Source: Patescibacteria group bacterium
GTDB lineage: Bacteria > Patescibacteriota > Minisyncoccia > Phycocordibacterales > JAACPR01
Assembly (NCBI GenBank): GCA_022711495.1
Contig: JAKLEX010000001.1
Span: forward strand, 436,882-500,881
Reading direction: 5' to 3'
DNA: 64,000 nucleotides
The position numbers were made by a program, and so were the translations under genes. Below the pieces are notes generated by a model. It ran no database searches. It saw nothing but the letters and a program-made list of their open reading frames with translations, and was not told where the DNA came from. How positions within the stretch are numbered: the first letter of the stretch is position 1; every line of letters begins with the position of its first letter. Of the stretch, positions 31,271-60,189 are shown in pieces.

Positions 31271-31274
31271 AAAG

Positions 31275-33452: not shown

Positions 33453-33510
33453 TTTTGTAAAATAAGAACAAATAATGCCGTTGGCAACGGTAGGTGGCCA
33501 AAAATAAAAA

Positions 33511-34737: not shown

Positions 34738-34779
34738 CTTTCCTCTATTTATTCTTTCTAACGAATTTCCAAGTATCAT

Positions 34780-35784
34780 TTACTTGATAATCTCAAAAAC
34801 CTCATCGATTGATTTGCGATGAGACTGACATATCTTTACTTTATCTGGATAATGACCGACGGCGACAATCATAATAACTGATTCGCTTTTATTTAATTTT
34901 AAGATTTTTCTCAATTTAATATCCTTAGTAAAATCCACAGACCAGTTTAAGCAACATGACCCGATGCCGAGAGCGTGTAAAGAATATACCACGCTCATTG
35001 AAAACATCCCGCCATCAATAAATACTTGGTTTCTTTCATTACTACCACTAAAATGATTTATATCTCCCGCAATGACAAGTATTTTTGAAATTGTGTGATC
35101 AAATCCCCTAATTCCCCCATGCACGGCCAGAATGGATTTGATTAACTTCTCATCAATAACATAATACGCTTTCCACCCTTGCCTATTACACACAGACGGA
35201 GTTTTTGTTGAAAGCCACACGGCCCTCTTAATTAAATCCGGGTCAATTGTCTCTGGAGAAAAATTTCTGATACTATAGCGGGACAAAAAAAATCTTTCCG
35301 GGTCTATCCATCTCGTGACAGACGCCAGCTGCTCTTTAGACTTTTCAATAACTCCCCCGGTCCTCCAATCAGATAAATTGTGGCCCTTTTCTAAGGCAGA
35401 AACTTTCTTGTCTAGGTTTTCAATATGTAGGTTATATCGGCCTATCTTCTTATGGAATTCAACATATTCTCGCAATGTGTGTATCGCATTTTTTACAGGG
35501 ACATCAAACCCATATCTTGGTGAAAATAATTTTATGTTTGTCAAAATCTTCGATATAGTATCCTTTCCCGAAAAAGGCTTGAATTCATCGACGGAAAGAG
35601 ATTTTTCTAGCTTATGGCAATCACGATTCATTAAGGCGTGATACTGCGTTTTATTCCTCGGGTGCCCCCCCATAATAGAATACTTTATATAGCGAGAAAA
35701 GTCATAAAGATAACTAAGCGGAAGAAAAAATAGATTTCGAACTTTGTTAATATTTCTTTTAAGACGGATGATTATTACATTCAT
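34780..35784 (-). CDS. Nitroreductase-family protein (C-terminal nitroreductase fold)
   Basis: C-terminal RAVWLSTKTPSVCNRQGWKAYYV...MIVAVGHYPD resembles the nitroreductase fold. The N-terminal 130 aa are unassigned. Confidence 0.5.
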   Translation of the reverse strand: MNVIIIRLKRNINKVRNLFFLPLSYLYDFSRYIKYSIMGGHPRNKTQYHALMNRDCHKLEKSLSVDEFKPFSGKDTISKILTNIKLFSPRYGFDVPVKNAIHTLREYVEFHKKIGRYNLHIENLDKKVSALEKGHNLSDWRTGGVIEKSKEQLASVTRWIDPERFFLSRYSIRNFSPETIDPDLIKRAVWLSTKTPSVCNRQGWKAYYVIDEKLIKSILAVHGGIRGFDHTISKILVIAGDINHFSGSNERNQVFIDGGMFSMSVVYSLHALGIGSCCLNWSVDFTKDIKLRKILKLNKSESVIMIVAVGHYPDKVKICQSHRKSIDEVFEIIK

Positions 35785-36938
35785 AAAAGCTTTTTCATTA
35801 TTAGATTATTAAAATCTTCTAAATCCTTACTTATCCTGACCAGTCCTCTTTCTATTATTGGGAGATATTTTGACTTCCAGTTAAATAATATCTCCTCTTT
35901 TTTATTTATGATAACACCTAGATTATTTTTTTGCTCTTTCATATCAACATACAAATCCTCAAGGCCAATATAGGATAAAAATAAAAACTTTTTGCTTTTA
36001 TCTCTGGGACAATCCGTCGTCTCAATGGACAAAAAAGGAGTCCTGTTTCTAATGCTAAAGATGGTCCCGTGAAAAGAATCCGTGACATTGAAACTTAATT
36101 CGCCAAATATTTTTGCCCACTGAAATGTGTTAATTACGTGATCAACGTTCAGATCTGTATTAAAGTTATTCGTCAATCCAAGTACTCCGCGATCAGAACT
36201 GGTCACCAGATATCTTTTTATGTGGTCAGGATAATTATCGTGATATATCTGGAGGCCGCAGGGCTTGGGATGTTTTTTAAAAAAAGATAATATCGTGTCT
36301 GGATATGAGACATCTCCATTAATTGGAACAAAAAAGGATGGGTCAGGGGTTATGGTCGCATCATCTCTATTGATAATATTTTTTGTGAACTTATCACGAA
36401 CAGAAACAATCGAAAAATCAGAGATTAAATCATGAATTTTTTCTTTATTTGATTCAAGTAAAGAAACGTCGGTTCCAAACGCGGATGTAGAAAATGAAAT
36501 CTTTCTGGCATCAGTTTTATAAGGTAACCAGTATTGATTGGGAAACGGCGGAAAAGGAAATTTTTTGGTTATTCTCCAAATGCAATCACTTCCGGAGACC
36601 AGAATATCTTCCTTTGACAAAAGCCTTGAAACTTTTTTCAAACTCATTTTTTCTAAGGAAAGAGTCCTGTTGGCATCTTTATTAATCAACTTATACCGAC
36701 GCCACTTTTGCAAACCGCCCCTATTTTGGGGAATGGCACGTAATAACTCATAAACAGAAAAAGAAAGGGGTAATTTATCAATGATCTTAACATCTGAATC
36801 GGGAAACAAAGTCTTGAAATTTAACTGTAGTCCATATGCCTGCAATAATGCTCCCCTGTTTATAACCTTATGATATGTGACAATTCTTATCTTCATTTTA
36901 CTGAATTCCTCGTGGCCTTTATTTTCATAATATTTCAC
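35781..36938 (-). CDS. Polysaccharide pyruvyl transferase family protein
   Basis: N-terminal KIRIVTYHKVINRGALLQAYGLQ matches the PS_pyruv_trans start motif (compare ILTFHRAHNYGAVLQAYALQ). Confidence 0.6.
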   Translation of the reverse strand: MKYYENKGHEEFSKMKIRIVTYHKVINRGALLQAYGLQLNFKTLFPDSDVKIIDKLPLSFSVYELLRAIPQNRGGLQKWRRYKLINKDANRTLSLEKMSLKKVSRLLSKEDILVSGSDCIWRITKKFPFPPFPNQYWLPYKTDARKISFSTSAFGTDVSLLESNKEKIHDLISDFSIVSVRDKFTKNIINRDDATITPDPSFFVPINGDVSYPDTILSFFKKHPKPCGLQIYHDNYPDHIKRYLVTSSDRGVLGLTNNFNTDLNVDHVINTFQWAKIFGELSFNVTDSFHGTIFSIRNRTPFLSIETTDCPRDKSKKFLFLSYIGLEDLYVDMKEQKNNLGVIINKKEEILFNWKSKYLPIIERGLVRISKDLEDFNNLIMKKLL

Positions 36939-38022
36939 TGGCCATTAATGTCTCCCTGACGCATTTACGCCATGAAAATCTCTTGATATTTTCATGGCCA
37001 TTGTTGATAATATTATGTCTTAATTTATCATCTTTTAGGGACTTTTCCATGGCGCTTGCTATTTCACCAATATTATATGGATTGACAGACACACCCCCTT
37101 CTCCAATAATTTCCGGACAAGATGTCACATTTGAAGTGAGAACCGGACAACCACAAGCTTGGGCCTCAAGTATTGGTAAACCAAAGCCCTCATATAGAGA
37201 CAGGTACAAATATAAATCAGCGGCCGAGTATAGGCAAATTAATTCCTCATCTGACACCCTTCTAATAAGAAAGGCTCTGCCCGATAAATTATCCTTTATA
37301 TATTTTTTTATGTCTTCAATCTCCCACAATAAGTTATTCGTTAAATAAATATTGTGCGGTATACGATTTTTTATCTGGTTAAATGCCATCAACATTCTCA
37401 ATATATTTTTTCTCGGACTTAGTGAGCCGCAATAGAATAAAAATGGTTTATCAACATCCAATCTTGACAGGGTTCTTTGTATTAAGTCATGGTCGGCTTG
37501 TTTTTTAAAATAGTCTTCAGCCGCCAAATAGACGACCTTTATTTTTTCAGGATTAATACCCAGACGATCTATAATATCTTGCTTCGTGTACTCTGAGATT
37601 GCGACCGTCTTGCTGGCAAGCCGACAGGATAGTTTCATGAAAACCCTCATATACAATGTATCCCAAAAACGATAAGCTTTTATTTCCCTATTAAAATAAG
37701 CCAAATCTAAAATAATATTTATCTTTTTAAATCTAAAAAATAAATGCGTAAAAGGGATAATATTCTTTGGGTATATAACGGCATCTAATTTTATTTTAAA
37801 TAAATAGGGCAGAATTTTTATATAATCCCAAAATATTTTATTGCTCTTTTTAAGATAAACAACCTTAATATTTTTATAAGCCGTTTTAAAATCTTCCTTA
37901 TCTGTAAATAAAACTAGAGAATTTTCTTTGGAAAAAAAGGCATCAAAAGTCATTAAAAAATTTTCTATATATCTAGTAACGCCCCCTTTTGTCAGTCCTC
38001 TTGCGATAAAACCGATTGTCAT
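36925..38022 (-). CDS. Glycosyltransferase family 4 (GT-B)
   Basis: Carries the EGFGLPILEAQACGCPVLTS motif (the EX7E region). Confidence 0.8.
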   Translation of the reverse strand: MTIGFIARGLTKGGVTRYIENFLMTFDAFFSKENSLVLFTDKEDFKTAYKNIKVVYLKKSNKIFWDYIKILPYLFKIKLDAVIYPKNIIPFTHLFFRFKKINIILDLAYFNREIKAYRFWDTLYMRVFMKLSCRLASKTVAISEYTKQDIIDRLGINPEKIKVVYLAAEDYFKKQADHDLIQRTLSRLDVDKPFLFYCGSLSPRKNILRMLMAFNQIKNRIPHNIYLTNNLLWEIEDIKKYIKDNLSGRAFLIRRVSDEELICLYSAADLYLYLSLYEGFGLPILEAQACGCPVLTSNVTSCPEIIGEGGVSVNPYNIGEIASAMEKSLKDDKLRHNIINNGHENIKRFSWRKCVRETLMASEIL

Positions 38023-38747
38023 ATGGTTGTTTTTCTTACCACAATCAGATAACTCAGCGGAAAGATTTTTTTCATCCCAAAAAATTTATCCAGAGTAAGG
38101 AGGCATCTTTGAATTACAAAATTAATCCAAAATGTTAGCTTGTTGATACCAGGAATATTATATGTTAGACCCAGAAATATCGTCTGAAATATATAACCCT
38201 TAAAAGCCAGCAGTCCCCCCAACTCTTTTATCTCTACAACTTCGAGACGGTTTTCTTCTATAATTTTTTTAAGGGAATATTTAGTAAATCGCCAATAATC
38301 ATGTGGCTCATTGTGGAGGTACCCAAGATACGGCACAGTTATAACGGCGTACCCCCCATCCTTTAAAACTCTACTGATTTCGCTCACGGCTTTAGTTGGG
38401 TTCGGCACATGCTCTAGGACATTCCTAGAAAATACAAAATCATAACGGCCCGAATTGATTTCTAACATATTTTGTATATCTGCAACATACGTCAAGCCGG
38501 GGTGTGTCCTTTCAAAATCCATGCTTTCATAGTCGGCCGTATATTTAGTAAGCACTTTTTTATACAATAAATTACCGGCGCCAGCGTCTAAAACTTTGCC
38601 CTTGCAATACTTTGGCAATAAGGCTCCCAATTCTTTAAAAAGAATCATGTTGCCGGCGGATGTTTTCCAGTAGTGCCAATTATCTCGAAGCCCATAATTC
38701 ATTTTTTTGATATTATTCTTTATCAAATCTTTTATCATAATGTCCAT
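38019..38747 (-). CDS. Class I SAM-dependent methyltransferase
   Basis: Motif I VLDAGAGNLL and a post-I acidic residue are present. Confidence 0.7.
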   Translation of the reverse strand: MDIMIKDLIKNNIKKMNYGLRDNWHYWKTSAGNMILFKELGALLPKYCKGKVLDAGAGNLLYKKVLTKYTADYESMDFERTHPGLTYVADIQNMLEINSGRYDFVFSRNVLEHVPNPTKAVSEISRVLKDGGYAVITVPYLGYLHNEPHDYWRFTKYSLKKIIEENRLEVVEIKELGGLLAFKGYIFQTIFLGLTYNIPGINKLTFWINFVIQRCLLTLDKFFGMKKIFPLSYLIVVRKTTI

Positions 38748-38813
38748 TTTATCTGGAATCTTACTTTAAGTGCCATAATAAAAGCATATAATAGATGCTG
38801 AGTCTGCGCTAAT

Positions 38814-39914
38814 TTATAGATATTTTTGTTTGTATTTATTTGCCGCATTTGCCCAATCTATTTTGGCAGCTAGAAAAAGTGAGGCTGATGATTGACGCTT
38901 TAGTAGTTCAGCGTCTTTATTATACATTTCAATGGCGCCCTTTAATTCTTCGGCAGATCTCATGCTAACGACAAAACCATTATCCTTGACCAGTTCGGCC
39001 GAACCACCAGTATTAGTAGCAATGATCGGCAAACCAACCGCCATGGCTTCCAAAATTGAATTAGACATGCCCTCGTTTAGAGACGGCAAAACAAAGACAT
39101 CTGATTGTTGCAATAATGAAACAATTTCAGAGTGTTCTTTTTTACCAACAAAATTAACGTTTGAATTACATTCTTTCGCTAAAGATTTTAGTCTGGGTGC
39201 CAGATTCCCATCTCCAACTAGGGTTAAAACGACATTTTTCATCCCAGAGATCGCCCTAATTGAATATTCATACCCTTTTCTTTCAATTAACCTGCCGGTA
39301 GAGATTAATCGTAAATTTTTACTTTGAACTTTTGCCGCCGTAGGTTTAAATTCTTCTAAATCAACACCATTATAAATGACCCCGATATCTTGCTTCAGTG
39401 CGGTTTTGAACGCCAAATTTTTTAAATCTTCAGAATTTGCAATTACAGATTTTGCTCTTTTCCAAACTTTTTTGCTCAAAGATTTAAAAATAAGCTTGTC
39501 TAGCCAATAAAATCTCTTGTTATAAAAAGGCACATCGCTACCGCGCAAACTCACAATGTATGGCAAACCAAGTTTCATGGCAATATACCCGCAAGGAATT
39601 CCAAAGAAAGCGTGGCAAAGATCAAACTTGTTTTGCTTCATTAATTTTTTGGCATAGCGGTAGGCTCTCCAAGAATAGAACAAAAGATCTTTATTACTTT
39701 GATAATGTAAATTCCCCCTTTTACCGATATCTAAAAAATGGATTTTTATATTTTTCGAAAATTGCTCAACTTTAAATTCATTTACCGACGAAGTCACCAA
39801 ATCAATTTCGAGATCAGGATCTTTGGCAAATTCCTTCAACAAATAATATGTCGCGTTCCCCGCTCCACCTCCCAGTGGCGGAAATTCGTAATTTAACATG
39901 AGAATTTTTTTCAT
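38814..39914 (-). CDS. Glycosyltransferase family 4 (GT-B)
   Basis: Carries NEGMSNSILEAMAVGLPIIATNTGG. Confidence 0.8.
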   Translation of the reverse strand: MKKILMLNYEFPPLGGGAGNATYYLLKEFAKDPDLEIDLVTSSVNEFKVEQFSKNIKIHFLDIGKRGNLHYQSNKDLLFYSWRAYRYAKKLMKQNKFDLCHAFFGIPCGYIAMKLGLPYIVSLRGSDVPFYNKRFYWLDKLIFKSLSKKVWKRAKSVIANSEDLKNLAFKTALKQDIGVIYNGVDLEEFKPTAAKVQSKNLRLISTGRLIERKGYEYSIRAISGMKNVVLTLVGDGNLAPRLKSLAKECNSNVNFVGKKEHSEIVSLLQQSDVFVLPSLNEGMSNSILEAMAVGLPIIATNTGGSAELVKDNGFVVSMRSAEELKGAIEMYNKDAELLKRQSSASLFLAAKIDWANAANKYKQKYL

Positions 39915-39920
39915 AGGGAT

Positions 39921-40889
39921 CTAAATTTTGAAATATTCTTTATACCAATCAATAAACAAATTGACGGCTTTTTCAACGGAAGTTTTTGGTTTCCAGCCAA
40001 GATTTTTCTCCGTGTATTCAATGTCAGCATAAGTCTCTAAAACATCGCCGGGCTGAATTTCAGTATATTTTTTCATAGCCTTCTTGCCGAGTTCTTTTTC
40101 AAGACATGAAATAAAGTATTCCAATCCGACTGGCTTATTATTCCCCAGATTGAAAATATGATAACCGCCGACCATTTCCAAAGATAAGATGACTCCTTCA
40201 GCGACATCCTCAACATAAGTAAAATCGCGGCGCATCTTACCGAAATTGAAAACCTTGATCTCTTTGCCTTTGCCGATTGAGTCGGCAAAAATCATTGGAG
40301 CCATATCTGGCCGACCCCACGGACCGATAACCGTGAAAAAGCGCAAGCCCGTGGTATTGATACCAAAAAGATGATGATAAGTATAGGCCATCAATTCGTC
40401 AGCTTTCTTTGTCGCCGCATAAAGAGATATCGGCTCATTGACCTGATCGTCCACAGAAAACGGAACTTTCTTATTGTTCCCGTAAACCGAACTTGATGAG
40501 GCATAAACAAAGTCTTTAATATTATTATTCCGAACCGCCTCTAAAATATTTACAAAAGCAACGATGTTTGATTTTACATACGATTGCGGATTTATAAGAC
40601 TGTAACGAACGCCGGCCTGAGCTGCCAAATGACAGATTTTATCAAACTTATTTTCTGTGAAGATCTTTTCGACAAATTTTGGATCGCTTAAATCGCCTCG
40701 ATAAATTTTATAATTGGGATAGCCTTCCAAAATTTTATTTCTGGCCTCCTTAAGACCGGGGTCGTAGTAATCATTAAAATTATCCGCACCAACAACGATT
40801 GCGCCATCGTCTAAAAGTTTCTTAGCAGTATGGAAACCGACAAACCCGGCGCTACCAGTTACTAATATTATTTTGCCCTTTAATCCCAT
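39921..40889 (-). CDS. NAD-dependent epimerase/dehydratase (UDP-glucuronate 4-epimerase-like)
   Basis: GSAGFVGFH Rossmann motif, DNFNDYYD, and the YAATKK catalytic motif. Confidence 0.8.
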   Translation of the reverse strand: MGLKGKIILVTGSAGFVGFHTAKKLLDDGAIVVGADNFNDYYDPGLKEARNKILEGYPNYKIYRGDLSDPKFVEKIFTENKFDKICHLAAQAGVRYSLINPQSYVKSNIVAFVNILEAVRNNNIKDFVYASSSSVYGNNKKVPFSVDDQVNEPISLYAATKKADELMAYTYHHLFGINTTGLRFFTVIGPWGRPDMAPMIFADSIGKGKEIKVFNFGKMRRDFTYVEDVAEGVILSLEMVGGYHIFNLGNNKPVGLEYFISCLEKELGKKAMKKYTEIQPGDVLETYADIEYTEKNLGWKPKTSVEKAVNLFIDWYKEYFKI

Positions 40890-40905
40890 AGCAAATTCGA
40901 AATTA

Positions 40906-41847
40906 TTACTTTTCTATCACCTCCCTTATGTAATATCTTTTCTCATAATGAGAAAGACCGAGATGGATTTTGATGAGAAGATCAATAACGATACCGAAGC
41001 TAAACAAAACGATGGCTGACAACGTCAGAAAAGTTGTTATGTAAAACCAGCCGTTTCTATTCAAACTAATTCCTAAAAAGGTTTTATCATAAATTGTCCA
41101 AAGACCGGAGGCAATAGCCAAAACAAAAGAAATTAAACTCATGTAACCAAAAAAATGCAGCGGTCGTTGAGAAAACTTATAGATGAAGCAGACATAAAGT
41201 AAATCAAGAAGACCGCGAATAGCTTTCGTGTAATTGTATTTACTTTTTCCGTGTTCTCGTAATCGGTCATTAACGATTACTTCCCCGATTTTAAAACCTT
41301 TCCAGCGCAAAAGGGTTACAACGTAACGATGCATCTCTCCACCAATATCCAATGACTTTACCGCCTCTTTTTTATAAGCTCGCAAAGTACAGCCAGAATC
41401 ATTTACCGCGTCTTTAATGAAAAACCTTCTGACGGCCTTGCCAATCAGGGTTAGCAGACAAATTCCCTTTTTATCCTTTCGATCCTTTCTCCAACCGGCG
41501 ACGACATCCAGATTCCCCTCGCGCATTTTTTGAAGCAATTTGGCAAAATCGGCCGGATCGTTCTGGCCGTCGCCGTCTATGGAAATGACAATTTCACCAG
41601 TGGCCATTTTGAAGCCCGCGTCTAGAGCCGTGGCCTGGCCATAATTACGATTCAGGTCAATAATCTTTACATTTGTCAGAGTTTTTAATTCTTCAAGCGA
41701 TCCGTCGTTGCTACCATCATTTATATAAATAATCTCAAAACTGTCAGAAATGGCCGACATTGCGGCTCTTATTTCTTGATCAAGCTTTGTGATGTTCCCT
41801 TTTTCGTTATAAACCGGAACAACAATAGAATAATCCAAATTCTTCAT
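40906..41847 (-). CDS. GT2 polyprenol-phosphate glycosyltransferase (GtrB/ArnC/DPM1-like) with a C-terminal TM pair
   Basis: YSIVVPVYNE, DGSNDGS, DGDGQND and two C-terminal TM helices. Confidence 0.8.
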   Translation of the reverse strand: MKNLDYSIVVPVYNEKGNITKLDQEIRAAMSAISDSFEIIYINDGSNDGSLEELKTLTNVKIIDLNRNYGQATALDAGFKMATGEIVISIDGDGQNDPADFAKLLQKMREGNLDVVAGWRKDRKDKKGICLLTLIGKAVRRFFIKDAVNDSGCTLRAYKKEAVKSLDIGGEMHRYVVTLLRWKGFKIGEVIVNDRLREHGKSKYNYTKAIRGLLDLLYVCFIYKFSQRPLHFFGYMSLISFVLAIASGLWTIYDKTFLGISLNRNGWFYITTFLTLSAIVLFSFGIVIDLLIKIHLGLSHYEKRYYIREVIEK

Positions 41848-41907
41848 ATCTTAACTAATTTACCATTAACACGGCTTCATGTTAAATGATTGGCGCACTT
41901 CAAAAAA

Positions 41908-41952
41908 GTTTTCCAAAAATAAAGGCCCCGAAGCGTATAACGCTCGGGGCCT
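41908..41952 (-). terminator. Strong intrinsic terminator (GGCCCCGAGCG...CGCTTCGGGGCC plus TTTATTTTTGG on the minus strand)
   Basis: A perfect GC-rich stem followed by a T-tract, directly downstream of ORF 41969..42399. Confidence 0.6.
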
Positions 41953-41968
41953 TGTTGTGTTGAAGCGG

Positions 41969-42399
41969 CTAACTTTCGTCGGCGGTAATGGCAGCACCGG
42001 CCCGACCAGCCAGAGCGGACGGATGTGCCCGTCGGTCGCGTTGTTCCTGACATTTGGCGATCAGGTGTTGGCGCGTGGACCACAGATGAGCCAAGTTGCA
42101 TCGAGCAACAAATTCCTGCGCCGTAAGCGCCAGGCTTTTGTGCTGACACAATTCAAACTCGATGGTAATGCCCCGTGCCATATCGATCTGCTGATCGATT
42201 TCCGCGATCTGCTTGCGCAGAGCGCGAATGCCGAGAGCGCCCTTTTCGCCGGTATCGTGACGCTGAACCGAAGGCGAGACCAAGACCGCGCCAGGTTCAA
42301 CAGAAGTCATGGCGTAAAAGTATTCACCGCCGTAGCAGACTGTCGTCGGCAGAATTCCTGCCACCAACATCACCAGCACCAACATTCCGATCACCTTCA
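41969..42399 (-). CDS. GC-rich small secreted hypothetical protein (signal peptide)
   Basis: The RBS AAGGAGAAGGGGG precedes the ATG (MKVIGMLVLVMLVAG...). The gene lies in a ~60% GC patch, and longer ORFs in other frames are judged to be artefacts. Confidence 0.4.
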
Positions 42400-42561
42400 T
42401 TTCCCCCTTCTCCTTTTGTTTCTGTTTGGTTAACCTATTTAACTTCAATACTCTCAATGTGCAAAGTCTAGCGAGAAATTCTACAAGATCAGCTGAAAGC
42501 GTCAACTCCAACTGTTAAAGAAAAGTGGATAAGCTAAAAATAGCGCTAATTTCGGGTATAT

Positions 42562-42606
42562 TTTAAAGAAAATAAAAGCCCCACAAGCCCGTGCTTGTGG
42601 GGGTTA
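42562..42606 (-). terminator. Intrinsic terminator (stem CCCCACAAGC/GCTTGTGGGG, loop CCGT) with TTTTATTTTCTTT on the minus strand
   Basis: A 10-bp GC-rich stem plus a long T-tract, seen in the sequence. Confidence 0.55.
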
Positions 42607-43326
42607 CAACATTTTGACCCTACTTAGAGAGGGTTCAGACCAGGATGTGTCAGCTCTACGCCTGAGAGGCGCAGAGCCTGCGTCTGACCCCGGCCATGTG
42701 TCGCCGGTGGCAGGGTTTCGCGTGATGGGCTCCCAAGGCGCCGATTTCGCTGGCCGCGTCGTCAATCGTCATCAGAACGCCGCGACCGCCACTGTCAAAC
42801 CACTTCCTGTGCATCTTCCACCTCGCTTCCTTCCTGCACCATCTGGTGCTTTCCTTGGTCCGCCAACGGTCTCTTAGACCTTGGATCGGCGAACTTCCGC
42901 GATTGACTCTACCACATCTTTCTTAACTGAAGCAACTTAAATTGTGGATAAAGAAAACGGAGAAAATAAAAAGGCGGAGAGATAGCAAGCTATTTCTCCG
43001 CCAGACGACTCTTTAATTTTCTCCATTTTCCATGCTCAACCCTGGAGAGGGGGTGTCTTCCTGGCTGATCCGGTTACCGACCAGGCTCCCGCCGCGCATT
43101 TATAAGGATGCCAGGCTAGACGGCCGCTTCGGCAGCAGCATACAGCGCCTCCCTTTCATGGGCCCAATGCTGGGGTTTCCGGGTGACCAGTTATCGTGGC
43201 CCCCACACACGTCAGCCGCCTTTATAAGGGGCCAAGATTCAAACGGTCTCAAGTAACATCTATTCGCTATGGTAGCACAGTGGCTAAAAATGTCAATAGG
43301 GAGTTGGGGGTATAGCTTGATCCGGC
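42607..43326 (-). other. GC-rich non-coding stretch with no credible ORF. Candidate structured ncRNA(s) or decayed foreign element.
   Basis: Roughly 55-65% GC. Two minus-strand terminators partition it. It contains direct repeats GCCGCGCATTTATAAGGATGCC and GCCGCCTTTATAAGGGGCC, a possible promoter TTGACA...TACCAT at about 43272-43300 (minus), and a TGTGGATAA box. Confidence 0.25.
42950..43003 (-). terminator. Intrinsic terminator (stem GGCGGAGA/TCTCCGCC) with TTTTTATTTTCTCCGTTTTCTTT on the minus strand
   Basis: An 8-bp stem with a 14-nt loop plus a long T-tract. Confidence 0.5.
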
Positions 43327-43668
43327 TTATTTAGCTAGAAAACAAGGGCACAGCTTCTTTTTCAGGAGAATTTTCTGCCTTTTAATAGAATCAACAAAGA
43401 TATTTTGTCGCGCCTTACCATCGGCTAATTTTTTATTTAGAGGAGTCAGGTGCCGATATCCGCGGCGACGAAATTCTTTTACCAACGCCTCGTGACGAAG
43501 ATAAAGCGCCTTCTTTTTTCCAGCCCAACGCAGAGTTTCTGGATGATACGAGTAACCACCCTTCCCTTTGTGCTTAGTCAAAATATTCCAAAGACCATGA
43601 AGCTCACGGTGCTCGGCCAGTAAGTGTTTTCGGCATAAATATTTTGGTGGGATGTCCCAGATACGCAT
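43327..43668 (-). CDS. Pyrimidine dimer DNA glycosylase / T4 endonuclease V-like (Pyr_excise family)
   Basis: MRIWDIPPKYLCRKHLLAEHRELHGLW matches the family's N-terminal signature (MRLWSLHPKYLD...LVAEYRE). A TGGTAGAAT extended -10 sits just upstream of this ATG, so the longer track ORF start is unlikely. Confidence 0.6.
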   Translation of the reverse strand: MRIWDIPPKYLCRKHLLAEHRELHGLWNILTKHKGKGGYSYHPETLRWAGKKKALYLRHEALVKEFRRRGYRHLTPLNKKLADGKARQNIFVDSIKRQKILLKKKLCPCFLAK

Positions 43669-43777
43669 ATTGATTTGCGGCCATTCTACCACAATCACGT
43701 GTTTGCATATTTGCGTATTTGTTGTAATATCGTAAACGGATTAAATAGTTCTCAACAAAAGAAAGGGTTGTTTCATT

Positions 43778-44185
43778 ATGCCAACATTCACAGTTGACAT
43801 GCACCAGCCAAGCATGAAAATCCTGGAAGCAATGCGCGGTTATTTGCAGGGCCTCATTGACAATTTGTCAAGAGCGATGTCCTGGCTGGAACGGCTGATT
43901 TCAGCCGAAAATCAATGGAAAAAAGAGGCCGCGCTGGATCAAGATCAGCAACGGATCAGAGAACTGCGTCTCTGGGCCGAAGAAGCGGCTTGCAATCTTA
44001 AGTTTTATTACAATGAGATTGCCAGACATTTGTCCTCCTTTCCCGAACTGATGCTGGCGTTAAATATCCCCATCCAGAGGGTCAACGCCGATTACGGCAT
44101 GCTTCTAAGGAATAAGGGACTAGCCGACGGAAGTCTCATCAAGATATCGGGAAGCGTCAGTGACCCAAAATGCCAAACGGCTTAG
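43778..44185 (+). CDS. Hypothetical protein
   Basis: ORF only (135 aa, helical). No recognised family. Confidence 0.35.
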   Translation: MPTFTVDMHQPSMKILEAMRGYLQGLIDNLSRAMSWLERLISAENQWKKEAALDQDQQRIRELRLWAEEAACNLKFYYNEIARHLSSFPELMLALNIPIQRVNADYGMLLRNKGLADGSLIKISGSVSDPKCQTA

Positions 44186-44357
44186 CCGAATAATTTGGCC
44201 GAATCATCTGGCCGTAGTCCCACCAAAGGACTTCATTACGCCGCCGAGAAGAAATTCGCGGCGGTTTTTATTTTTGATCGTCTGTGGACTAAATAAATCG
44301 GCGGGCAACGATAAGTGGTATAATTATGTGGGTTTACAAGCTAAACCTTATAAAATT

Positions 44358-44567
44358 ATGAAAGCAGTAAAAGCTATAGCCTTTATTTTAGTTATTATTG
44401 GAGGTTTAAATTGGTTACTAGTTGGCGCCTTTGGTTACGACTTGGTTGCTTCTCTACTAGGAGAAATGTCAGCTCTATCAAGAGTTGTTTATGTCCTAGT
44501 CGGTATTTCAGCAATCATTGAGCTTTTGACTATCAAGAAGAAAGCGGCCCCAGTTCAGGTCCAATAG
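44358..44567 (+). CDS. DUF378 family small membrane protein
   Basis: MKAVKAIAFILVIIGGLNWLLVGAFGYDLVASLLG...VVYVLVGISAI fits the DUF378 pattern. Start taken at the internal ATG. Confidence 0.6.
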   Translation: MKAVKAIAFILVIIGGLNWLLVGAFGYDLVASLLGEMSALSRVVYVLVGISAIIELLTIKKKAAPVQVQ

Positions 44568-44579
44568 GAACCTACTCGC

Positions 44580-44612
44580 AAAAACGCTCCCGAAATGGGA
44601 GCGTTTTTGATT
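44580..44612 (+). terminator. Intrinsic terminator (GCTCCC-GAAAT-GGGAGC plus TTTTTGATT)
   Basis: Hairpin plus T-tract after the DUF378 gene. The stem is even annotated by its own sequence, gctcccgaaatgggagcg. Confidence 0.6.
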
Positions 44613-44624
44613 ATTTAAGAAAAA

Positions 44625-44683
44625 TTATAATAAATAATAAAAAGCCCCGTCTGTTTTGATGTCATCGCAACAGATAGGGCTTC
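44625..44683 (-). terminator. Intrinsic terminator for ORF 44688..45530 (stem AAGCCCTATCTGTT/AACAGACGGGGCTT)
   Basis: The minus-strand hairpin is followed by TTTTTATTATTTATT. Confidence 0.5.
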
Positions 44684-44687
44684 AACA

Positions 44688-45530
44688 TTATTTGAATGTG
44701 GCTCCGACTCGGTAATAGCGCTGGGTAACTGCCTCCGAATCGGAAAAAACAAACTCCTCCCCCGTCCCAGAGACATTATTAGTCAGAAGCGTCCACTCCG
44801 ACGCCAGAGAAAGGTCCTCTGTGTAATACACCGCATACAGACGGCTTGTGGTTGTCTGTATTGAGAAAGAATACCCATTCGTATCCCAGCCCTCATCAAG
44901 ACAGACGGGGTGCGAGATCACTTCGCCAGTTCCCGACGTCGTAGCAAGATTAAATATCACATGCCACCCGATGGCGCCAATAGCGTCCCCGAAACTGGCA
45001 CTGCCGTCTACTAAACCAGGATCAAATAGCAGGTCAAGAACTAGTGTGTCACCGTTCAGTTGGACATTGGTTACGGTACCCCACGCATAGCTGGCCACTG
45101 GACGGCAATTTCGACTCGTCCGTCCGTAATCCGTCTCTCGCGGACCTCTTGATTCGTAATACGACAACGTCCATTCAGCATCGCCACGATCCACATCAAA
45201 TTCAAAGTTGGTCCCTGTGGGATCTTTGAAAAATGGGCTCATGATGTCTACCAGACTAGCATTGTTGATATTCAACCCATACGCCTCCGGGTCATTGAAC
45301 TCATCGCCATATAATCTAAAACTGGACGCCACTGCCACGTGCCGTGCCGTGACAATCACATCTGAATTAGCGATTTGAGTTGACCAATTAGTCTTTTCCG
45401 CCGGTGTGGCGCCAGAATAGAGAATCGCTGAAGTAAAAAAAATATCAGTAATTAATTCCGACGCGGTCCCATGTTGATATGGCATGATTACTGATGCCAT
45501 AACTAGCCATGAAAAGATTCGACTATTCAT
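44688..45530 (-). CDS. Secreted hypothetical protein with moderately elevated GC
   Basis: Signal peptide MNSRIFSWLVMASVIMPYQHG. No recognised domain. Confidence 0.4.
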   Translation of the reverse strand: MNSRIFSWLVMASVIMPYQHGTASELITDIFFTSAILYSGATPAEKTNWSTQIANSDVIVTARHVAVASSFRLYGDEFNDPEAYGLNINNASLVDIMSPFFKDPTGTNFEFDVDRGDAEWTLSYYESRGPRETDYGRTSRNCRPVASYAWGTVTNVQLNGDTLVLDLLFDPGLVDGSASFGDAIGAIGWHVIFNLATTSGTGEVISHPVCLDEGWDTNGYSFSIQTTTSRLYAVYYTEDLSLASEWTLLTNNVSGTGEEFVFSDSEAVTQRYYRVGATFK

Positions 45531-45657
45531 TTTATCCCCTTCCCGTATTGGTTTTACTGAACTCTTGTAAATGAACAAAACCCTCTTACACACTACAAAA
45601 TATTTAAGAGATTATCAACGCTCAAGGATTCCAAAAATCCGCGGGCGATTTATTCTG

Positions 45658-45728
45658 CTGCCAGACCTGGATTCGAACCAAGATACTCGCCTCCAGAGGG
45701 CGATGTCCTACCATTAGACGATCTGGCA
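45658..45728 (-). tRNA. tRNA-Gln, anticodon CTG (U1-A72, discriminator G)
   Basis: The reverse complement is TGCCAGATCGTCTAATGGTAGGACATCGCCCTCTGGAGGCGAGTATCTTGGTTCGAATCCAGGTCTGGCAG. The anticodon loop CTCTGGA reads as CUG. Confidence 0.7.
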
Positions 45729-51510: not shown

Positions 51511-52197
51511 ATGCTGGGCAACGATAAAAAAGAAATCCTCCGAAATTTGGCCGGTTTAATTGTTATCTTTCTTATAATTTTCGTCTCGTTTCGGTTTTTC
51601 AATATGGATCAAGTCAGAGATTACATAGAACGCGCCGGGCTTTGGGCGCCGGTAATTTTTATTCTGGCCAAAGCTTCTACTATTGTCTTTGCTCCCCTTT
51701 CCGGCTCACCGCTCTATCCGTTAGCCGGAGTTCTCTTTGATCCGATCTTCGGATTTATTTACATTGTTCTCGGCGACGCTCTCGGAGCGACGGTTTCCTT
51801 TTATATCAGCCGATTATTTGGACGTAGTTTTATTGAAAAGTTTGTTCGTGGAGACATTCAATCCGTTGATAAAGTCCTGGGCTTCATAGAAAAGAAACGT
51901 GGCTTTTTGATCGCCAGAATTTGTTTCGCCGCGTTGCCGGAAGCCATAAGTTACGCCGCCGGACTGACCAGAATTAGGTTTCTAACTTTTTTTATGATTC
52001 ACAACGCAGTTGGATTAATTCCGTCAGCAATTTTGGTCTGGTCTGGGGCATTTTTGACGACACTTACGGGCAATCCGCTTGTCATACTGGCCATCGTGAT
52101 TATCGGATTTGTCGCCGCCGGAGCGGGAGCTTTCTTGCTAACAAGATTTGCCAATGAAAAAAGCGACCCAGCCGACCATCATGGGATGATAAACTGA
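51511..52197 (+). CDS. TVP38/TMEM64 (DedA-like) family membrane protein
   Basis: The region VFAPLSGSPLYPLAGVLFDPIFGFIYIVLGDALGATVSFYISRLFGR matches the family. Confidence 0.7.
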   Translation: MLGNDKKEILRNLAGLIVIFLIIFVSFRFFNMDQVRDYIERAGLWAPVIFILAKASTIVFAPLSGSPLYPLAGVLFDPIFGFIYIVLGDALGATVSFYISRLFGRSFIEKFVRGDIQSVDKVLGFIEKKRGFLIARICFAALPEAISYAAGLTRIRFLTFFMIHNAVGLIPSAILVWSGAFLTTLTGNPLVILAIVIIGFVAAGAGAFLLTRFANEKSDPADHHGMIN

Positions 52198-52231
52198 GTC
52201 GCTTTGAATTATTACTACACTAACCACCGGG

Positions 52232-53485
52232 TTATGGGCGCACGATAAGCGTCCACCGACGCGCTGGTCGAAGCCAGCGAAGGATATCGCGAATATCGTC
52301 CATAGTTACACGGTTCACAGCTTCGCAATATTCCGCAAGCGTTATAACCCTTTGATATACGTCCAGATCGGCAATTGCGTCGTCGCAGAGCTCTCGAGCT
52401 GTCAGATCTAACATTGTGATGCGAGAGGTTTTCATCTCCTTGACCTTTTCCAACAGGTCCTCACGATCAGAGAGAGAGGATATGCAATCCTCAATAGTCC
52501 CTTCTATTCTATCAAGCGCACTAAGAACAAACGCGTCGCAGTTGATAGAAAACTCATAGAAGTTTCTATAATTACACCAATCACCGCTTATGGCATAAGT
52601 CCAGGCGCGCTTTTCCCGGATTTCCTCTCCCAGTAATTTATCAACCATCTCCTCCAGAATCGCAATTGCGCGATTATTTACCCTTCCAGGAACTTGAGCG
52701 ACGCTTCTGTACGCGCCACTTGTAACCTGAATCCCCATGGATTTAGTCGTCTCAAACACGTGACGATTCTCCGCGGGCAGAGTGGCACCAGTTGTTGGTG
52801 TTGATAGGGGGACTCGAGCCCCAACCTTATCCACCAAAAATGCACTTTTGGAAAGGAGCTCAACGAGTTCAGATATCTGCAACCCGCCGACACCGACAAT
52901 ACTTATGTTGGCGGGAGTGTAATAATTATCGTAGTGCTTTTGCAGATCTGCCTGAGTTATACGCCGAATTGAATCTGGATCACCAAGCGTTCGAACAAAT
53001 CTACCCAACCACTTATCTGGGTATAACATCTTGCGTTCTCGCCACTTCAGATCGAGCTTGTCCCTGGTCGGATAGCGACGATTAAACTCTTCCAGGATAA
53101 CCGATCGCTCGCGCTCAATAAGTTTATCAAGTCGCGCTGAAAGCAACATGTGGCCAAACATTGAAAACGCCCGGACAATAGTTGCGGGGTCGATTGGAAG
53201 GAAGAAACTATATTTAACGTTTGAATAGCCGGTCCGACCCAGGCCGATTTTTCCACCCCTGGCCCCAAAGAAACTCCGCATTTCATCCTTTGTAACAATG
53301 GTATTTTCTGATACCAGATGTTCAACAAAATGCGATAACCCCTCTAGACCAATCGGATCGTTTTCAGCTCCACTATGGACAATAAAGCCCATTGCCTCCC
53401 ACGGCCGACCAGGCCAGTGAGCGGCATAGACAGTCAATCCATTCCATAGAACTGCTGATTCAAACTCTGCATATGGATCCCACAT
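52232..53485 (-). CDS. M16-family (pitrilysin/insulinase-like) zinc peptidase
   Basis: The inverted zinc motif HFVEH (HxxEH) lies near the N-terminus, with a downstream E. GC is moderately elevated. Confidence 0.6.
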   Translation of the reverse strand: MWDPYAEFESAVLWNGLTVYAAHWPGRPWEAMGFIVHSGAENDPIGLEGLSHFVEHLVSENTIVTKDEMRSFFGARGGKIGLGRTGYSNVKYSFFLPIDPATIVRAFSMFGHMLLSARLDKLIERERSVILEEFNRRYPTRDKLDLKWRERKMLYPDKWLGRFVRTLGDPDSIRRITQADLQKHYDNYYTPANISIVGVGGLQISELVELLSKSAFLVDKVGARVPLSTPTTGATLPAENRHVFETTKSMGIQVTSGAYRSVAQVPGRVNNRAIAILEEMVDKLLGEEIREKRAWTYAISGDWCNYRNFYEFSINCDAFVLSALDRIEGTIEDCISSLSDREDLLEKVKEMKTSRITMLDLTARELCDDAIADLDVYQRVITLAEYCEAVNRVTMDDIRDILRWLRPARRWTLIVRP

Positions 53486-57415: not shown

Positions 57416-57880
57416 CTACCATTTGAAGTCCGGCCAGTCTACGGGGGTAGACTGAATCTCTTCGTCGTAGAAGACTACGCAGAGAACGAGCGTTCCGTTC
57501 CCGATTTTCCTGATTCGGAAGAAGAACGTGGAAGAATGAAAAGCTCTCTGATAGAACTCCTCGATCGCCTTTTCGTCCAGATTATCCCGGCCGTAGTAGA
57601 GCTCCTTTTCGCTAACCGCATCATAGAACTCCACACTGGCCGTGGCGTTGACGAACCCGACCGTATCCGGCGCAATAGCCCGCGCTAGAATCTTGCCAAC
57701 ATCGTCAAGCCGAAAATCAAAACTCCGGGTCTGACCGTCAACATCGGTAATCTGGACACCGAAGTCCTTTGGCTGATCACCGACAATCAGATAGTCACAC
57801 AGCGAATCGTCTTCGTCCGGGTGGTACATGTAACCAACGACGGTTCCATCCACCGCGACGATCTGAATATACGGCTTCAT
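57416..57880 (-). CDS. Hypothetical protein (first gene of the GC-elevated island)
   Basis: 154-aa ORF, roughly 50% GC. Its upstream region carries GCGCGCCGTCTG-TTTGACAT-N17-TATAGT and a TGGAACTA box. Confidence 0.4.
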   Translation of the reverse strand: MKPYIQIVAVDGTVVGYMYHPDEDDSLCDYLIVGDQPKDFGVQITDVDGQTRSFDFRLDDVGKILARAIAPDTVGFVNATASVEFYDAVSEKELYYGRDNLDEKAIEEFYQRAFHSSTFFFRIRKIGNGTLVLCVVFYDEEIQSTPVDWPDFKW

Positions 57881-57924
57881 TCCGATCTCCTTTTGTTTTC
57901 TTGTTCAAGAACTTATCGCCAAAA

Positions 57925-58040
57925 CCTAACTGTCCGAACTATAGCAAAAAATCCTCTTAATGTCAAACAGACGGCGCGTTGCTACTTGAACAAAAAACAA
58001 TTTAAAATAAATTTCAAATGGGCCTGGAACTACTATTTTA
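57925..58040 (-). promoter_or_regulatory. Promoter region of gene 57416..57880, with a variant copy of the island motif
   Basis: The minus strand reads AGCAACGCGCCGTCTGTTTGACATTAAGAGGATTTTTTGCTATAGT. The TGGAACTA element lies about 45 bp further upstream. Confidence 0.45.
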
Positions 58041-58152
58041 AAAATTTAATCGGATCAAAGGTGGAGAGTGCTATAACAAGTTTGAGGTAAAAAAGAAAAG
58101 AGCTCGTAAGTTGTTACACTAACGAGCCCTTGTGCAGATGCGACACGTGCCC

Positions 58153-60170: not shown

Positions 60171-60189
60171 ATTACTTCAATATTATCAT

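What the first reader, a model, noticed from the sequence alone, without database searches (positions are those of the whole stretch)
41869..45600. Compositional mosaic: a GC-rich accessory patch carrying a secreted small protein, a T4-endoV-like pyrimidine dimer glycosylase, DUF378 and a secreted 280-aa protein
From the end of the glycan locus to tRNA-Gln, several genes and intergenic regions run at 45-65% GC. Each unit carries its own strong terminator. The glycosylase family is classically phage- or virus-associated. The patch ends at a tRNA gene (Gln, 45658-45728), which is a typical integration landmark.

Together these features fit a decayed integrated element or a set of laterally acquired cassettes. 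Similar GC-rich islets occur at 6608-7120, 23535-24038, 52232-53485, 57416-61170 and 63446-63949.
Basis: partly seen in the sequence, partly recalled or inferred. Interest (0 to 1): 0.5.

Follow-up and report, generated by a model that had tools for sequence, protein, structure and literature searches.

The report
GC-rich orphan gene cassettes beside tRNA-Gln
In a tiny-genome (Patescibacteria) bacterium, a variable stretch next to a conserved tRNA gene mixes ordinary native genes with small, self-contained GC-rich genes found nowhere else; this is a real but fairly ordinary accessory region, not a decayed integrated element.

Summary
The compositional anomaly is real but narrower than described. 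Only 41,858-43,331 is strongly GC-rich (54-60% against 42% for the window). It holds three of the six most extreme GC peaks in the 64 kb.

The glycosylase (43%) and DUF378 (39%) sit at or below the genome average. Relatives of both occur, sometimes side by side, in other low-GC Patescibacteria-like contigs, so they look native. The GC-rich parts are separate promoter-to-terminator units:
- a 143-aa signal-peptide protein;
- a 135-aa protein;
- a 280-aa secreted protein;
- two units with no credible gene.

The 143-aa and 135-aa proteins have no relative among 1.84 billion representative proteins. The 280-aa protein has one relative family, on roughly 63% GC wastewater contigs.

There is no integrase, no repeat of the tRNA end, and no phage or plasmid similarity. 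The tRNA-Gln is a conserved anchor next to the PGA_cap gene in 24 of 80 relatives. Synteny with the two closest relatives stops exactly at its 3' end.

The two gene-less units show no coding signal and no excess RNA folding, so their nature is open.

Verdict: piecemeal orphan cassettes at a variable site, a known kind of thing. Interest is low to moderate.

The parts
41915..41953 (-). Intrinsic terminator of the sec143 unit
   Evidence: Hairpin of -24.4 kcal/mol followed by TTTATTTTT (sequence read).
41969..42400 (-). sec143: gene for a 143-aa orphan protein with an N-terminal hydrophobic signal or anchor helix. GC is 56.7% and third-codon-position GC is 0.62.
   Evidence: An AAAAGGAG Shine-Dalgarno sequence lies at 42,403-42,417. 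The codon-model score is positive only in this frame (after correcting the frame). Only a self-hit was found among 1.84 billion representatives and there is no Pfam or PHROG match. A low-confidence model shows a helical hairpin.
42478..42505 (-). Promoter-like site of sec143 (TTGACG, 16 nt spacer, TAGAAT)
   Evidence: Consensus scan, 10 of 12 matches. Not tested experimentally.
42569..42935 (-). Unit B, a GC-rich (60%) unit without a convincing gene. Weak extended -10 promoter-like site at 42,906-42,935, body at 42,610-42,900, possible 52-aa ORF at 42,656-42,814 with a GAGGTGG Shine-Dalgarno sequence, terminator at 42,569-42,602.
   Evidence: Terminator found (-18.9 kcal/mol). No Rfam match. 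No protein relative in any frame. Whole-unit codon scores are at or near zero in all six frames (highest +0.010), like RNase P RNA. The 52-aa ORF scores +0.05 bits per codon with third-position GC 0.77, and gene callers called it in 3 of 4 assemblies. Folding z-score is -2.4 to -3.4, no better than GC-rich coding ORFs.
42963..43296 (-). Unit A, a GC-rich (58%) unit without a gene. Promoter-like site at 43,269-43,296 (TTGACA, 16 nt, TG-n-TACCAT), body at 43,020-43,262, terminator at 42,963-43,002. Only a 13-codon ORF follows a Shine-Dalgarno-like site (43,139-43,156). It could also act as the 3' untranslated region of the glycosylase mRNA.
   Evidence: Promoter scan gave 10 of 12 matches with TG. 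Terminator is -18.6 kcal/mol. Folding z-score is +0.4 for the core and -1.0 with the terminator. Codon scores are at or below zero in six frames. No Rfam, protein or DNA relatives. No terminator lies between the glycosylase stop codon and this unit.
43327..43668 (-). Pyrimidine-dimer DNA glycosylase (T4 endonuclease V family), 113 aa, 43.0% GC. A native gene.
   Evidence: Pfam Pyr_excise E 5e-24 and phrog_1183 E 1e-9. GC and dinucleotide signature are typical of native genes. It has 43 relatives at 64-87% identity in low-GC contigs, with DUF378 adjacent in L089 and L091.
43778..44185 (+). orf135: gene for a 135-aa orphan protein, 48.8% GC, third-position GC 0.57. Own promoter-like site at 43,703-43,730 and terminator at 44,240-44,275.
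   Evidence: Codon score is positive in its own frame only. Only a self-hit among 1.84 billion representatives. Terminator is -15.9 kcal/mol.
44358..44567 (+). DUF378 small membrane protein, 69 aa, 39% GC. A native gene.
   Evidence: Pfam DUF378 E 3e-21. Relatives lie next to the glycosylase in L089 and L091.
44579..44609 (.). Bidirectional terminator shared by DUF378 (plus strand) and sec280 (minus strand)
   Evidence: A 13-14-bp hairpin (one search counts 14 pairs, the fold 13) of -20.6 kcal/mol, flanked by T-rich sequence on both strands.
44688..45530 (-). sec280: gene for a 280-aa secreted protein of unknown function, 48.4% GC. Second-codon-position GC is high (0.46), while third-position GC (0.48) is at the top of the native range.
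   Evidence: Its only relatives are P0001 and near-identical copies: 62% identity over 239 aa, plus 44% over the C-terminal 71 aa, with about 120 extra residues in P0001. These lie on roughly 63% GC wastewater contigs, where the gene matches its neighbours in third-position GC (0.81 against 0.83-0.84). The structure model failed (pLDDT 30).
45657..45728 (-). tRNA-Gln(CTG). A conserved anchor next to PGA_cap and the point where synteny with relatives ends.
   Evidence: ARAGORN and Rfam. The same position after PGA_cap is seen in 24 of 80 relatives. Collinearity with L006 and L007 runs from about 56,350 to this tRNA and then stops. No repeat of it occurs elsewhere in the window.

Best explanation
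The region is a variable chromosomal segment in a Paceibacteria (Patescibacteria/CPR) genome. It begins at the 3' end of a conserved tRNA-Gln. It is not one element.

Two native genes, a UV-damage glycosylase and a DUF378 membrane protein, are interleaved with five small autonomous transcription units whose bodies are GC-rich. Three of these units encode lineage-specific proteins: sec143 with a signal or anchor helix, orf135, and secreted sec280. Two units (A and B) have no credible gene.

Each unit uses the genome's own style of signals: a sigma-70-type promoter, an AAGGAG ribosome-binding site and a hairpin plus T-run terminator. Only the body between those signals is compositionally foreign. 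This is the layout of the 'morons' described in phage genomes (my own knowledge of that literature), but here it sits in a chromosome.

The most likely history is piecemeal gain of single genes from GC-richer members of the same wastewater or digester community:
- sec280 is an old gain, because its synonymous sites have already drifted to the host level.
- The units at 55-60% GC are more recent gains.
- Units A and B are most likely dead or very short-ORF versions of the same kind of cassette.

What is shown: the composition, the unit layout, the orphan status, the absence from relatives, and the single high-GC relative of sec280. What is inferred: the direction and mechanism of transfer, actual transcription, secretion, and any role at the cell surface next to the glycan locus.
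For: - Composition: GC and dinucleotide outliers are confined to sec143, units A and B, orf135 and sec280, while the glycosylase is typical. Third-position GC is 0.57-0.77 in the GC-rich units against 0.40-0.48 in native genes.
- Unit layout: promoter-like sites, Shine-Dalgarno sequences and terminators flank each GC-rich body.
- Coding: all GC-rich ORFs score positive only in their own frame.
- Orphan status: sec143 and orf135 give only self-hits among 1.84 billion representatives and nothing among 5.8 billion clusters.
- sec280: its only relatives are in a lineage at about 63% GC with ordinary chromosomal neighbours (ParB, MsrA, an ABC importer) from wastewater metagenomes.
- Relatives: L006 and L007 keep GH1-ROK-PGA_cap-tRNA-Gln but carry none of the patch genes, and each has different content beyond the tRNA.
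- Native genes: the glycosylase has 43 relatives in low-GC contigs, with DUF378 adjacent in two.
- Not an assembly artefact: the 4 kb is 100% identical in four independent assemblies.
- Context: genomic islands and horizontal transfer are already documented in Patescibacteria (PMC12455944).
Against: - No donor was found for sec143, orf135 or units A and B, so their foreign origin rests on composition alone.
- The direction of the sec280 transfer is not determined. Its third-position GC is at the host level, so its GC excess may only reflect amino-acid content.
- The closest available relatives are distant (PGA_cap 57-58% identical). The synteny break may therefore be an ordinary rearrangement, and no far edge of an insertion could be defined.
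- Promoters and terminators are consensus matches only. The total number of matches in the region is no higher than in shuffled sequence.
- The unit B promoter-like site was not picked up by the promoter scan. By eye it matches 3 of 6 in the -35 element.
- There is no expression or protein evidence.
Confidence: 0.6

Rival explanations
1. The whole stretch from 41,869 to 45,600 is the decayed remnant of a single integrative element or prophage that inserted at the 3' end of tRNA-Gln.
For: - The patch lies on the 3' side of the tRNA, and synteny with relatives stops exactly there.
- A T4 endonuclease V family gene is present.
- In L006 another GC-rich patch lies about 1 kb beyond the same tRNA.
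Against: - No integrase or other mobility gene is among the ORFs.
- No repeat of 12 nt or more of the tRNA occurs anywhere in 64 kb.
- No DNA match to phages or plasmids, and no viral-contig match for either unit or for sec280.
- None of the orphan proteins matches a phage family.
- The glycosylase and DUF378 have native composition and are neighbours in other Patescibacteria-like contigs.
- GC swings between 38% and 63% over the patch rather than forming one block.
- Only 2 of 19 relatives show a strong GC-rich peak beyond this tRNA.
Confidence: 0.08
2. Units A and B are genes for new small non-coding RNAs of about 300 nt each, transcribed from their own promoters to their own terminators. 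Their GC-richness reflects RNA structure, as it does for RNase P RNA in this AT-leaning genome.
For: - Each has a promoter-like site and a strong terminator around a body with no long ORF.
- There is no coding signal in any frame, as for RNase P RNA.
- No protein relative exists in six frames.
- Unit B folds better than shuffled versions (z -3.4 with the terminator, -2.4 without).
Against: - The unit A core has no excess folding energy (z +0.4).
- Unit B is no better than the GC-rich protein ORFs (z -1.7 to -4.6), while the RNase P control reaches -6.5.
- No Rfam family matches even at E of 10 or less.
- No second copy or relative exists in the window or in about 130 loci, so covariation could not be tested.
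- Unit B contains a 52-codon ORF with a good Shine-Dalgarno sequence.
Confidence: 0.15
3. The GC-rich orphan genes were not acquired. They are native, fast-evolving or newly born genes whose composition reflects their own amino-acid content or local mutation bias.
For: - Their expression signals are entirely native in style.
- No donor is detectable for six of the seven focal and islet orphans tested exhaustively or by word index.
- Under the native codon model most still score positive in frame.
- The GC excess of sec280 lies mostly at the second codon position.
Against: - GC is raised at all three codon positions, including synonymous third positions (0.57-0.77 against 0.40-0.48).
- The dinucleotide signature is beyond the native 95th percentile for sec143, orf135, sec280 and both units.
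- sec280 has a clear relative at 62% identity in an unrelated high-GC lineage.
- Several islet proteins carry paired CxxC zinc-ribbon-like motifs, which are unlikely in newborn ORFs (read from the translations).
Confidence: 0.15
4. The mosaic is an assembly or binning artefact, with GC-rich reads from other organisms stitched into a Patescibacteria contig.
For: The source is a metagenome-assembled genome. The islets are short and have no relatives.
Against: - The 4-kb region with both flanks is 100% identical in two NCBI MAGs and two JGI metagenome contigs of 87-553 kb.
- Each GC-rich body is joined to native-style promoter, ribosome-binding site and terminator sequence.
Confidence: 0.02

Closest known systems
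Phage 'morons': autonomous promoter-ORF-terminator units inserted between phage genes, with deviant base composition
   Same: Each GC-rich unit is a single small ORF, or an ORF-less body, bracketed by its own sigma-70-type promoter-like site and a factor-independent terminator. Its composition differs from its neighbours, and it is slotted between native genes.
   Different: The surrounding DNA is chromosomal, not phage. No phage structural, replication or integration genes are present, and no orphan matches a phage protein family.
tRNA-linked genomic islands and islets, including those reported in Patescibacteria (PMC12455944)
   Same: The segment is compositionally deviant, accessory, rich in hypothetical genes, absent from relatives, and starts at the 3' side of a tRNA gene.
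   Different: There is no integrase, no flanking direct repeats and no defined far boundary. The deviant DNA is broken into units of 240-850 nt separated by native genes and native-style spacers rather than forming one block.
T4 endonuclease V / Pyr_excise family (PF03013)
   Same: The 113-aa protein matches the family model end to end (residues 11-85 of the longer ORF against profile positions 1-77 of 81, E 5e-24).
   Different: Here it is a native-composition chromosomal gene that is widespread in low-GC Patescibacteria-like contigs. It is not viral cargo and not part of the GC-rich fraction.
GC-rich structured RNAs in AT-rich genomes (for example RNase P RNA at 6,106-6,501 in this window)
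   Same: Units A and B are GC-rich, ORF-poor and end in terminators.
   Different: They lack the strong folding-energy signal of the RNase P control and match no Rfam family.

Membership tests
tRNA-integrated genomic island / integrative element | Integrase or other site-specific recombinase gene at one end | tested here: not met
   All ORFs from 41,869 to 45,600 are accounted for: Pyr_excise, DUF378 and three orphans. No recombinase family was found in Pfam. The neighbouring genes called in L001-L004 show none either.
tRNA-integrated genomic island / integrative element | Direct repeat (att) copying the 3' part of the target tRNA at the far end | tested here: not met
   No exact repeat of 12 nt or more of any part of tRNA-Gln, direct or inverted, occurs anywhere in the 64-kb window. 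The general repeat search found none either.
tRNA-integrated genomic island / integrative element | Present/absent polymorphism with an otherwise intact site in close relatives | tested here: inconclusive
   L006 and L007 lack all patch genes, but the sequence beyond the tRNA is unrelated for 3-10 kb, so no empty site can be reconstructed. All same-species assemblies are identical.
tRNA-integrated genomic island / integrative element | Base composition deviating from the host genome | tested here: met
   This holds for sec143, units A and B, orf135 and sec280 (GC z +3.3 to +10; dinucleotide distance above the native 95th percentile). It does not hold for the glycosylase. DUF378, at 207 nt, is too short for a reliable signature.
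Prophage remnant | Several genes matching phage protein families, or DNA similarity to known phages | tested here: not met
   Only the glycosylase matches a PHROG (E 1e-9), plus a marginal DUF378 hit. The eight orphan proteins tested (three in the patch, five in other islets) match none. There is no blastn match to 50,697 phage records and nothing in viral contigs.
Phage-type 'moron' unit | Own promoter and own intrinsic terminator around a single ORF | tested here: met
   Consensus promoter-like sites and hairpin plus T-run terminators are present for sec143, orf135, unit A and unit B. These are sequence matches only, and transcription has not been measured.
Phage-type 'moron' unit | Located between genes of a phage or prophage genome | tested here: not met
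   The neighbours are chromosomal: a glycan-synthesis locus, PGA_cap, ROK and GH1, which are syntenic with related Paceibacteria.
Integron gene-cassette array | IntI integrase and attC recombination sites after each cassette | tested here: not met
   There is no integrase ORF. The 3' hairpins are simple perfect stems with T-runs, which makes them terminators. attC core sites were looked for by eye only.
Known structured RNA family (Rfam) | Match to a covariance model | tested here: not met
   There is no hit at gathering score over the window apart from RNase P RNA and tRNAs. Within 42,570-43,270 the only hits at E of 10 or less are sub-threshold microRNA-model matches at the edge of unit A (E 1.3-7.1, far below their gathering scores).
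Pyr_excise (T4 endonuclease V) glycosylase family | Full-length match to PF03013 above the curated cut-off | tested here: met
   84.9 bits against a cut-off of 23, covering profile positions 1-77 of 81. Catalytic residues and activity were not tested.

The most novel reading that the evidence does not exclude
The GC-rich promoter-to-terminator mini-units scattered through this reduced genome number at least ten in the 64 kb. They may be a distinct way in which a naturally DNA-scavenging, host-attached bacterium captures short foreign fragments and wires them to native expression signals. That would yield a private, fast-turnover set of secreted or surface proteins. Units A and B would then be either new small RNAs or freshly captured fragments that are not yet, or no longer, coding.
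Probability: 0.1. Interest if true: 0.6.

Novelty: new member of a known kind. Interest (0 to 1): 0.3.

Why it matters
Patescibacteria have tiny genomes and live attached to other microbes. Which genes they can afford to gain, and how, is an active question.

This locus shows two things:
- Compositional outliers in such a genome can be single self-contained orphan genes rather than classical islands.
- A 'viral-looking' repair gene and a tRNA can give a misleading impression of an integrated element.

The orphan secreted proteins next to the surface-glycan locus are reasonable candidates for host-interaction factors. The two gene-less units are cheap targets for transcriptome checks. None of this changes current understanding, because horizontal transfer and islands in this phylum are already documented.

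Tried and rejected
- Known RNA families: the Rfam scans found only RNase P RNA and tRNAs.
- Units A and B as decayed genes: a six-frame chimeric query found no protein at E of 1 or less. tblastx against about 130 loci and the rest of the window found nothing.
- Relatives of units A and B: nhmmer and blastn against all loci gave only chance 13-15-mers.
- att sites: none.
- Phage, plasmid and viral similarity: none.
- Structure of sec280: the model failed at pLDDT 30 with a two-sequence alignment. The sec143 single-sequence model reached pLDDT 60 and showed only a generic helical hairpin, so no fold search was run.
The gene neighbourhood and 63.7% GC suggest an ordinary wastewater bacterium, but some Paceibacteria lineages are themselves GC-rich, so I cannot exclude a Patescibacteria source.
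- tRNA-Gln as a recurrent hotspot: the test was inconclusive, with only 2 of 19 relatives showing a GC-rich peak beyond it and no proper null model.
- Integron idea: rejected by inspection.

Two slips of my own were found and corrected:
- The sec143 start was off by one. The true frame is the one labelled '+2' there, and the correct coordinates are 41,969-42,400.
- One search used the wrong BLAST columns, so its table is invalid and one search replaces it.

Self-hits came back but not, so the word-indexed database seems to lack this organism's own proteins.

Full report
**What the window is.** The 64-kb window is 42.0% GC. The same sequence occurs in two NCBI metagenome-assembled genomes (GCA_035454325.1 and GCA_035453345.1, the latter on a 553-kb contig) and in JGI metagenome contigs. 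The nearest species-level relatives found with the flanking PGA_cap protein are labelled Paceibacteria, Paceibacterota or Parcubacteria, with some auto-labelled 'Saccharibacteria'. So this is a Patescibacteria (CPR) genome. The 4 kb around the finding is 100% identical in four independent assemblies. It is therefore not an assembly artefact, and there is no within-species variation to exploit.

**Names used below.** sec143 is the 143-aa signal-peptide protein gene. orf135 is the 135-aa protein gene. sec280 is the 280-aa secreted protein gene. Units A and B are the two GC-rich units without a credible gene.

**Checking the observation.** The GC profile is not uniform. For 200-nt windows the mean is 42.0%, the SD is 6.5% and the 99th percentile is 59.5%. 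Only six places exceed that percentile, and three of them are adjacent: 41,858-42,438, 42,525-42,953 and 42,944-43,331. Sixteen conserved native genes average 42.6% GC with an SD of 1.8%. Against them the features rank as follows:

| Feature | GC | z against native genes |
|---|---|---|
| sec143 | 56.7% | +8.0 |
| Unit B | 60.1% | +10.0 |
| Unit A | 57.6% | +8.5 |
| orf135 | 48.8% | +3.5 |
| sec280 | 48.4% | +3.3 |
| Glycosylase | 43.0% | +0.3 |
| DUF378 | 39% | -2.0 |

The dinucleotide signature tells the same story. sec143, both units, orf135 and sec280 lie beyond the 95th percentile of native chunks of matching length, and the glycosylase does not. So the anomaly is real.

**Anatomy.** Reading the minus strand from 43,700 downwards:
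- The glycosylase gene (43,668-43,327; Pyr_excise E 5e-24) has no terminator of its own.
- Unit A follows directly. It has a good promoter-like site at 43,296-43,269, a 58% GC body with no ORF beyond 13 codons behind a ribosome-binding site, and a terminator at 43,002-42,963.
- Unit B comes next. It has a weaker extended -10 promoter-like site at 42,935-42,906, a 60% GC body holding a possible 52-codon ORF with a GAGGTGG ribosome-binding site, and a terminator at 42,602-42,569.
- The sec143 unit comes last. It has a promoter-like site at 42,505-42,478, a 70-nt AT-rich leader, an AAAAGGAG ribosome-binding site, the ORF at 42,400-41,969, and a terminator at 41,953-41,915.

On the plus strand:
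- orf135 (43,778-44,185) has its own promoter-like site and a terminator at 44,240-44,275.
- DUF378 (44,358-44,567) ends at a bidirectional terminator (44,579-44,609) shared with sec280 (45,530-44,688, minus strand).
- sec280 lies just downstream of tRNA-Gln (45,728-45,657).

The promoter and terminator calls are consensus matches. Their total number in the region is no higher than in shuffled sequence, so it is their placement rather than their count that carries weight.

**The same build elsewhere.** The islets at 23,535-24,038, 63,446-63,949, 58,153-58,869, 60,292-61,170, 57,416-57,880, 6,608-7,120 and 767-988 have the same layout. Each has a native-style promoter, an AT-rich leader, an AAGGAG site, a GC-rich ORF with no Pfam family, and a hairpin terminator. 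The stretch 57,416-61,170 is itself a mosaic.

**Are the GC-rich ORFs real genes?** A codon-usage model was trained on them and tested leave-one-out. A second model was trained on native genes. In both, each GC-rich ORF scores positive in its annotated frame and negative in the other five. sec143 appears in the '+2' column there because I had its start off by one. GC is raised at all three codon positions, and third-position GC is 0.57-0.77 against 0.40-0.48 in native genes. Several of the islet proteins carry paired CxxC motifs (translations). They behave as real coding sequences with foreign-looking composition.

**What are units A and B?**
- No Rfam family matches, even at E of 10 or less.
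- No frame has a protein relative among 5.8 billion clusters, in about 130 fetched loci, or in the rest of the window.
- Codon scores over each whole unit are at or near zero in all six frames (highest +0.010), the same as for RNase P RNA.
- Folding energy gives no support for a structured RNA. The RNase P control has z = -6.5 and the unit A core +0.4. The unit B core at -2.4 is no better than the GC-rich protein ORFs at -1.7 to -4.6 (with terminators included).
- The 52-codon ORF in unit B has a good ribosome-binding site, third-position GC of 0.77 and a weakly positive score. Gene callers called it in three of four assemblies.

My reading is that these are the same kind of cassette as their neighbours, either dead or reduced to a very short ORF. 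A pair of unstructured small RNAs is not excluded. With no relative anywhere, covariation and substitution tests are impossible.

**Origin of the proteins.** sec143 and orf135 return only themselves from an exhaustive HMMER pass over 1.84 billion representatives. They return nothing from the word-indexed 5.8-billion-cluster search. Seven other islet ORFs also return nothing there. One of them, 63,446-63,949, has two weak relatives in the exhaustive search (E about 1e-5).

sec280 has one relative family, P0001. It is 62% identical over 239 residues and 44% over the C-terminal 71 residues, with about 120 extra residues in the middle. P0001 lies on wastewater-metagenome contigs that are 60-66% GC throughout. 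Its neighbours there are ParB, MsrA, an M48 peptidase, an ABC importer and two CNNM genes. Its third-position GC (0.81) matches those neighbours (0.83-0.84), so it is at home there.

sec280's own third-position GC (0.48) is at the host level, while its second-position GC (0.46) stays high like that of P0001 (0.49). This fits an old transfer whose synonymous sites have equilibrated. The direction of transfer is not proven, and I could not name the other lineage.

**The glycosylase and DUF378 are native.** The glycosylase has 43 relatives at 64-87% identity on contigs of 30-55% GC and up to 742 kb. DUF378 lies beside it in L089. In L091 the two are divergent neighbours with a different gene between them, mirroring the window. 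The phage-family match is real but modest (phrog_1183, E 1e-9).

**The tRNA and synteny.** tRNA-Gln follows PGA_cap on the same strand in 24 of 80 relatives, so it is a conserved anchor. The window is collinear with L006 and L007 from about 56,350 down to the tRNA. In these two relatives ROK is 83-86% and GH1 71% identical to the window's proteins. Beyond the tRNA nothing matches:
- L006 has a PPDK-N fragment, then its own GC-rich patch with signal-peptide ORFs.
- L007 has a membrane protein and a desaturase, with no GC anomaly.

The site is therefore variable, but no empty site or far edge can be defined. The relatives are distant enough that an ordinary rearrangement is possible. No repeat of the tRNA exists in the window, and there is no integrase. 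Only 2 of 19 relatives show a strong GC-rich peak beyond this tRNA.

**Comparison with known things.**
- The layout of promoter, single small ORF, terminator and deviant composition, slotted between resident genes, is that of phage 'morons' (my recollection of that literature). The setting here is chromosomal, and every phage test was negative.
- As a genomic islet next to a tRNA it meets the composition and absent-from-relatives criteria. It fails the integrase and att criteria.
- Genomic islands and gene transfer in Patescibacteria, with up to 13% of genome length attributed to horizontal transfer, are already published (PMC12455944).
- Highly expressed secreted proteins of unknown function have been proposed as host-attachment factors in digester Paceibacteria (PMC10936435). 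This gives a plausible but untested role for sec143 and sec280, which lie beside the surface-glycan locus.

**Verdict.** This is a new example of a known kind of feature. The two gene-less units are the only truly open item. Interest is 0.3.

Noticed in passing
window 58,941-58,998; 61,221-61,278; 62,560-62,617: A 58-nt sequence is repeated three times (79% and 60% identity to the first copy). On the minus strand it is a shared upstream element (CTAGTTYCAA...TCCACGRA.GCGCRCA) fused to a TTGACATAATTTTGTATTRTGTTAT promoter. It lies in front of two GC-rich orphan genes (58,153-58,869 and 60,292-61,170) and, more weakly, an MFS transporter gene. It looks like a common regulator-binding site. The 60,292 ORF has a sub-threshold response-regulator hit.
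   Followed up: partly
L006 10,000-11,520: The closest relative (about 32% GC background) has its own 47-56% GC patch about 1 kb beyond its tRNA-Gln. The patch has a 319-aa signal-peptide ORF ending in ...RF with a sub-threshold phosphate-porin match (E 0.006), and a 116-aa lipoprotein-like ORF. An outer-membrane-type protein would be foreign in a single-membrane bacterium.
   Followed up: partly
window 31,227-41,847: The glycan-synthesis locus that abuts the patch is an outlier in the opposite direction, at 35.5% GC (z -4 against native genes). The window therefore has both low-GC and high-GC accessory DNA side by side.
   Followed up: no
window 51,511-53,485: In L007 the M16 peptidase gene (47.8% GC) and the adjoining VTT-domain gene are both missing from between the tRNA-Thr pair and the release-factor gene. 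L006 keeps the VTT gene, but none of its ORFs matches the M16 gene. This looks like another variable spot next to tRNAs.
   Followed up: partly
window 6,106-6,501 (minus strand): Bacterial RNase P RNA, class A, just above the Rfam gathering score (103.9 against 100 bits). It was used as the positive control for the folding and coding tests.
   Followed up: yes
window 28,304-28,500 and 28,568-28,764: A 197-nt direct repeat at 96% identity with 264-nt spacing lies inside the gene for a 460-aa protein with peptidoglycan-binding domains (28,286-29,668). Shorter GTAGCC-type repeats lie near 29,384-29,512.
   Followed up: no
window 43,215-43,229 and 43,091-43,107 (minus strand): Unit A contains two copies of CCTTATAAA(G/T)GCG(C)GGC about 120 nt apart. 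Their meaning is unknown.
   Followed up: no
window 63,446-63,949: This GC-rich orphan ORF (two CxxC pairs) is the only islet protein with any distant relatives: two representatives at E about 1e-5 in the exhaustive search (P0006 and P0007).
   Followed up: no
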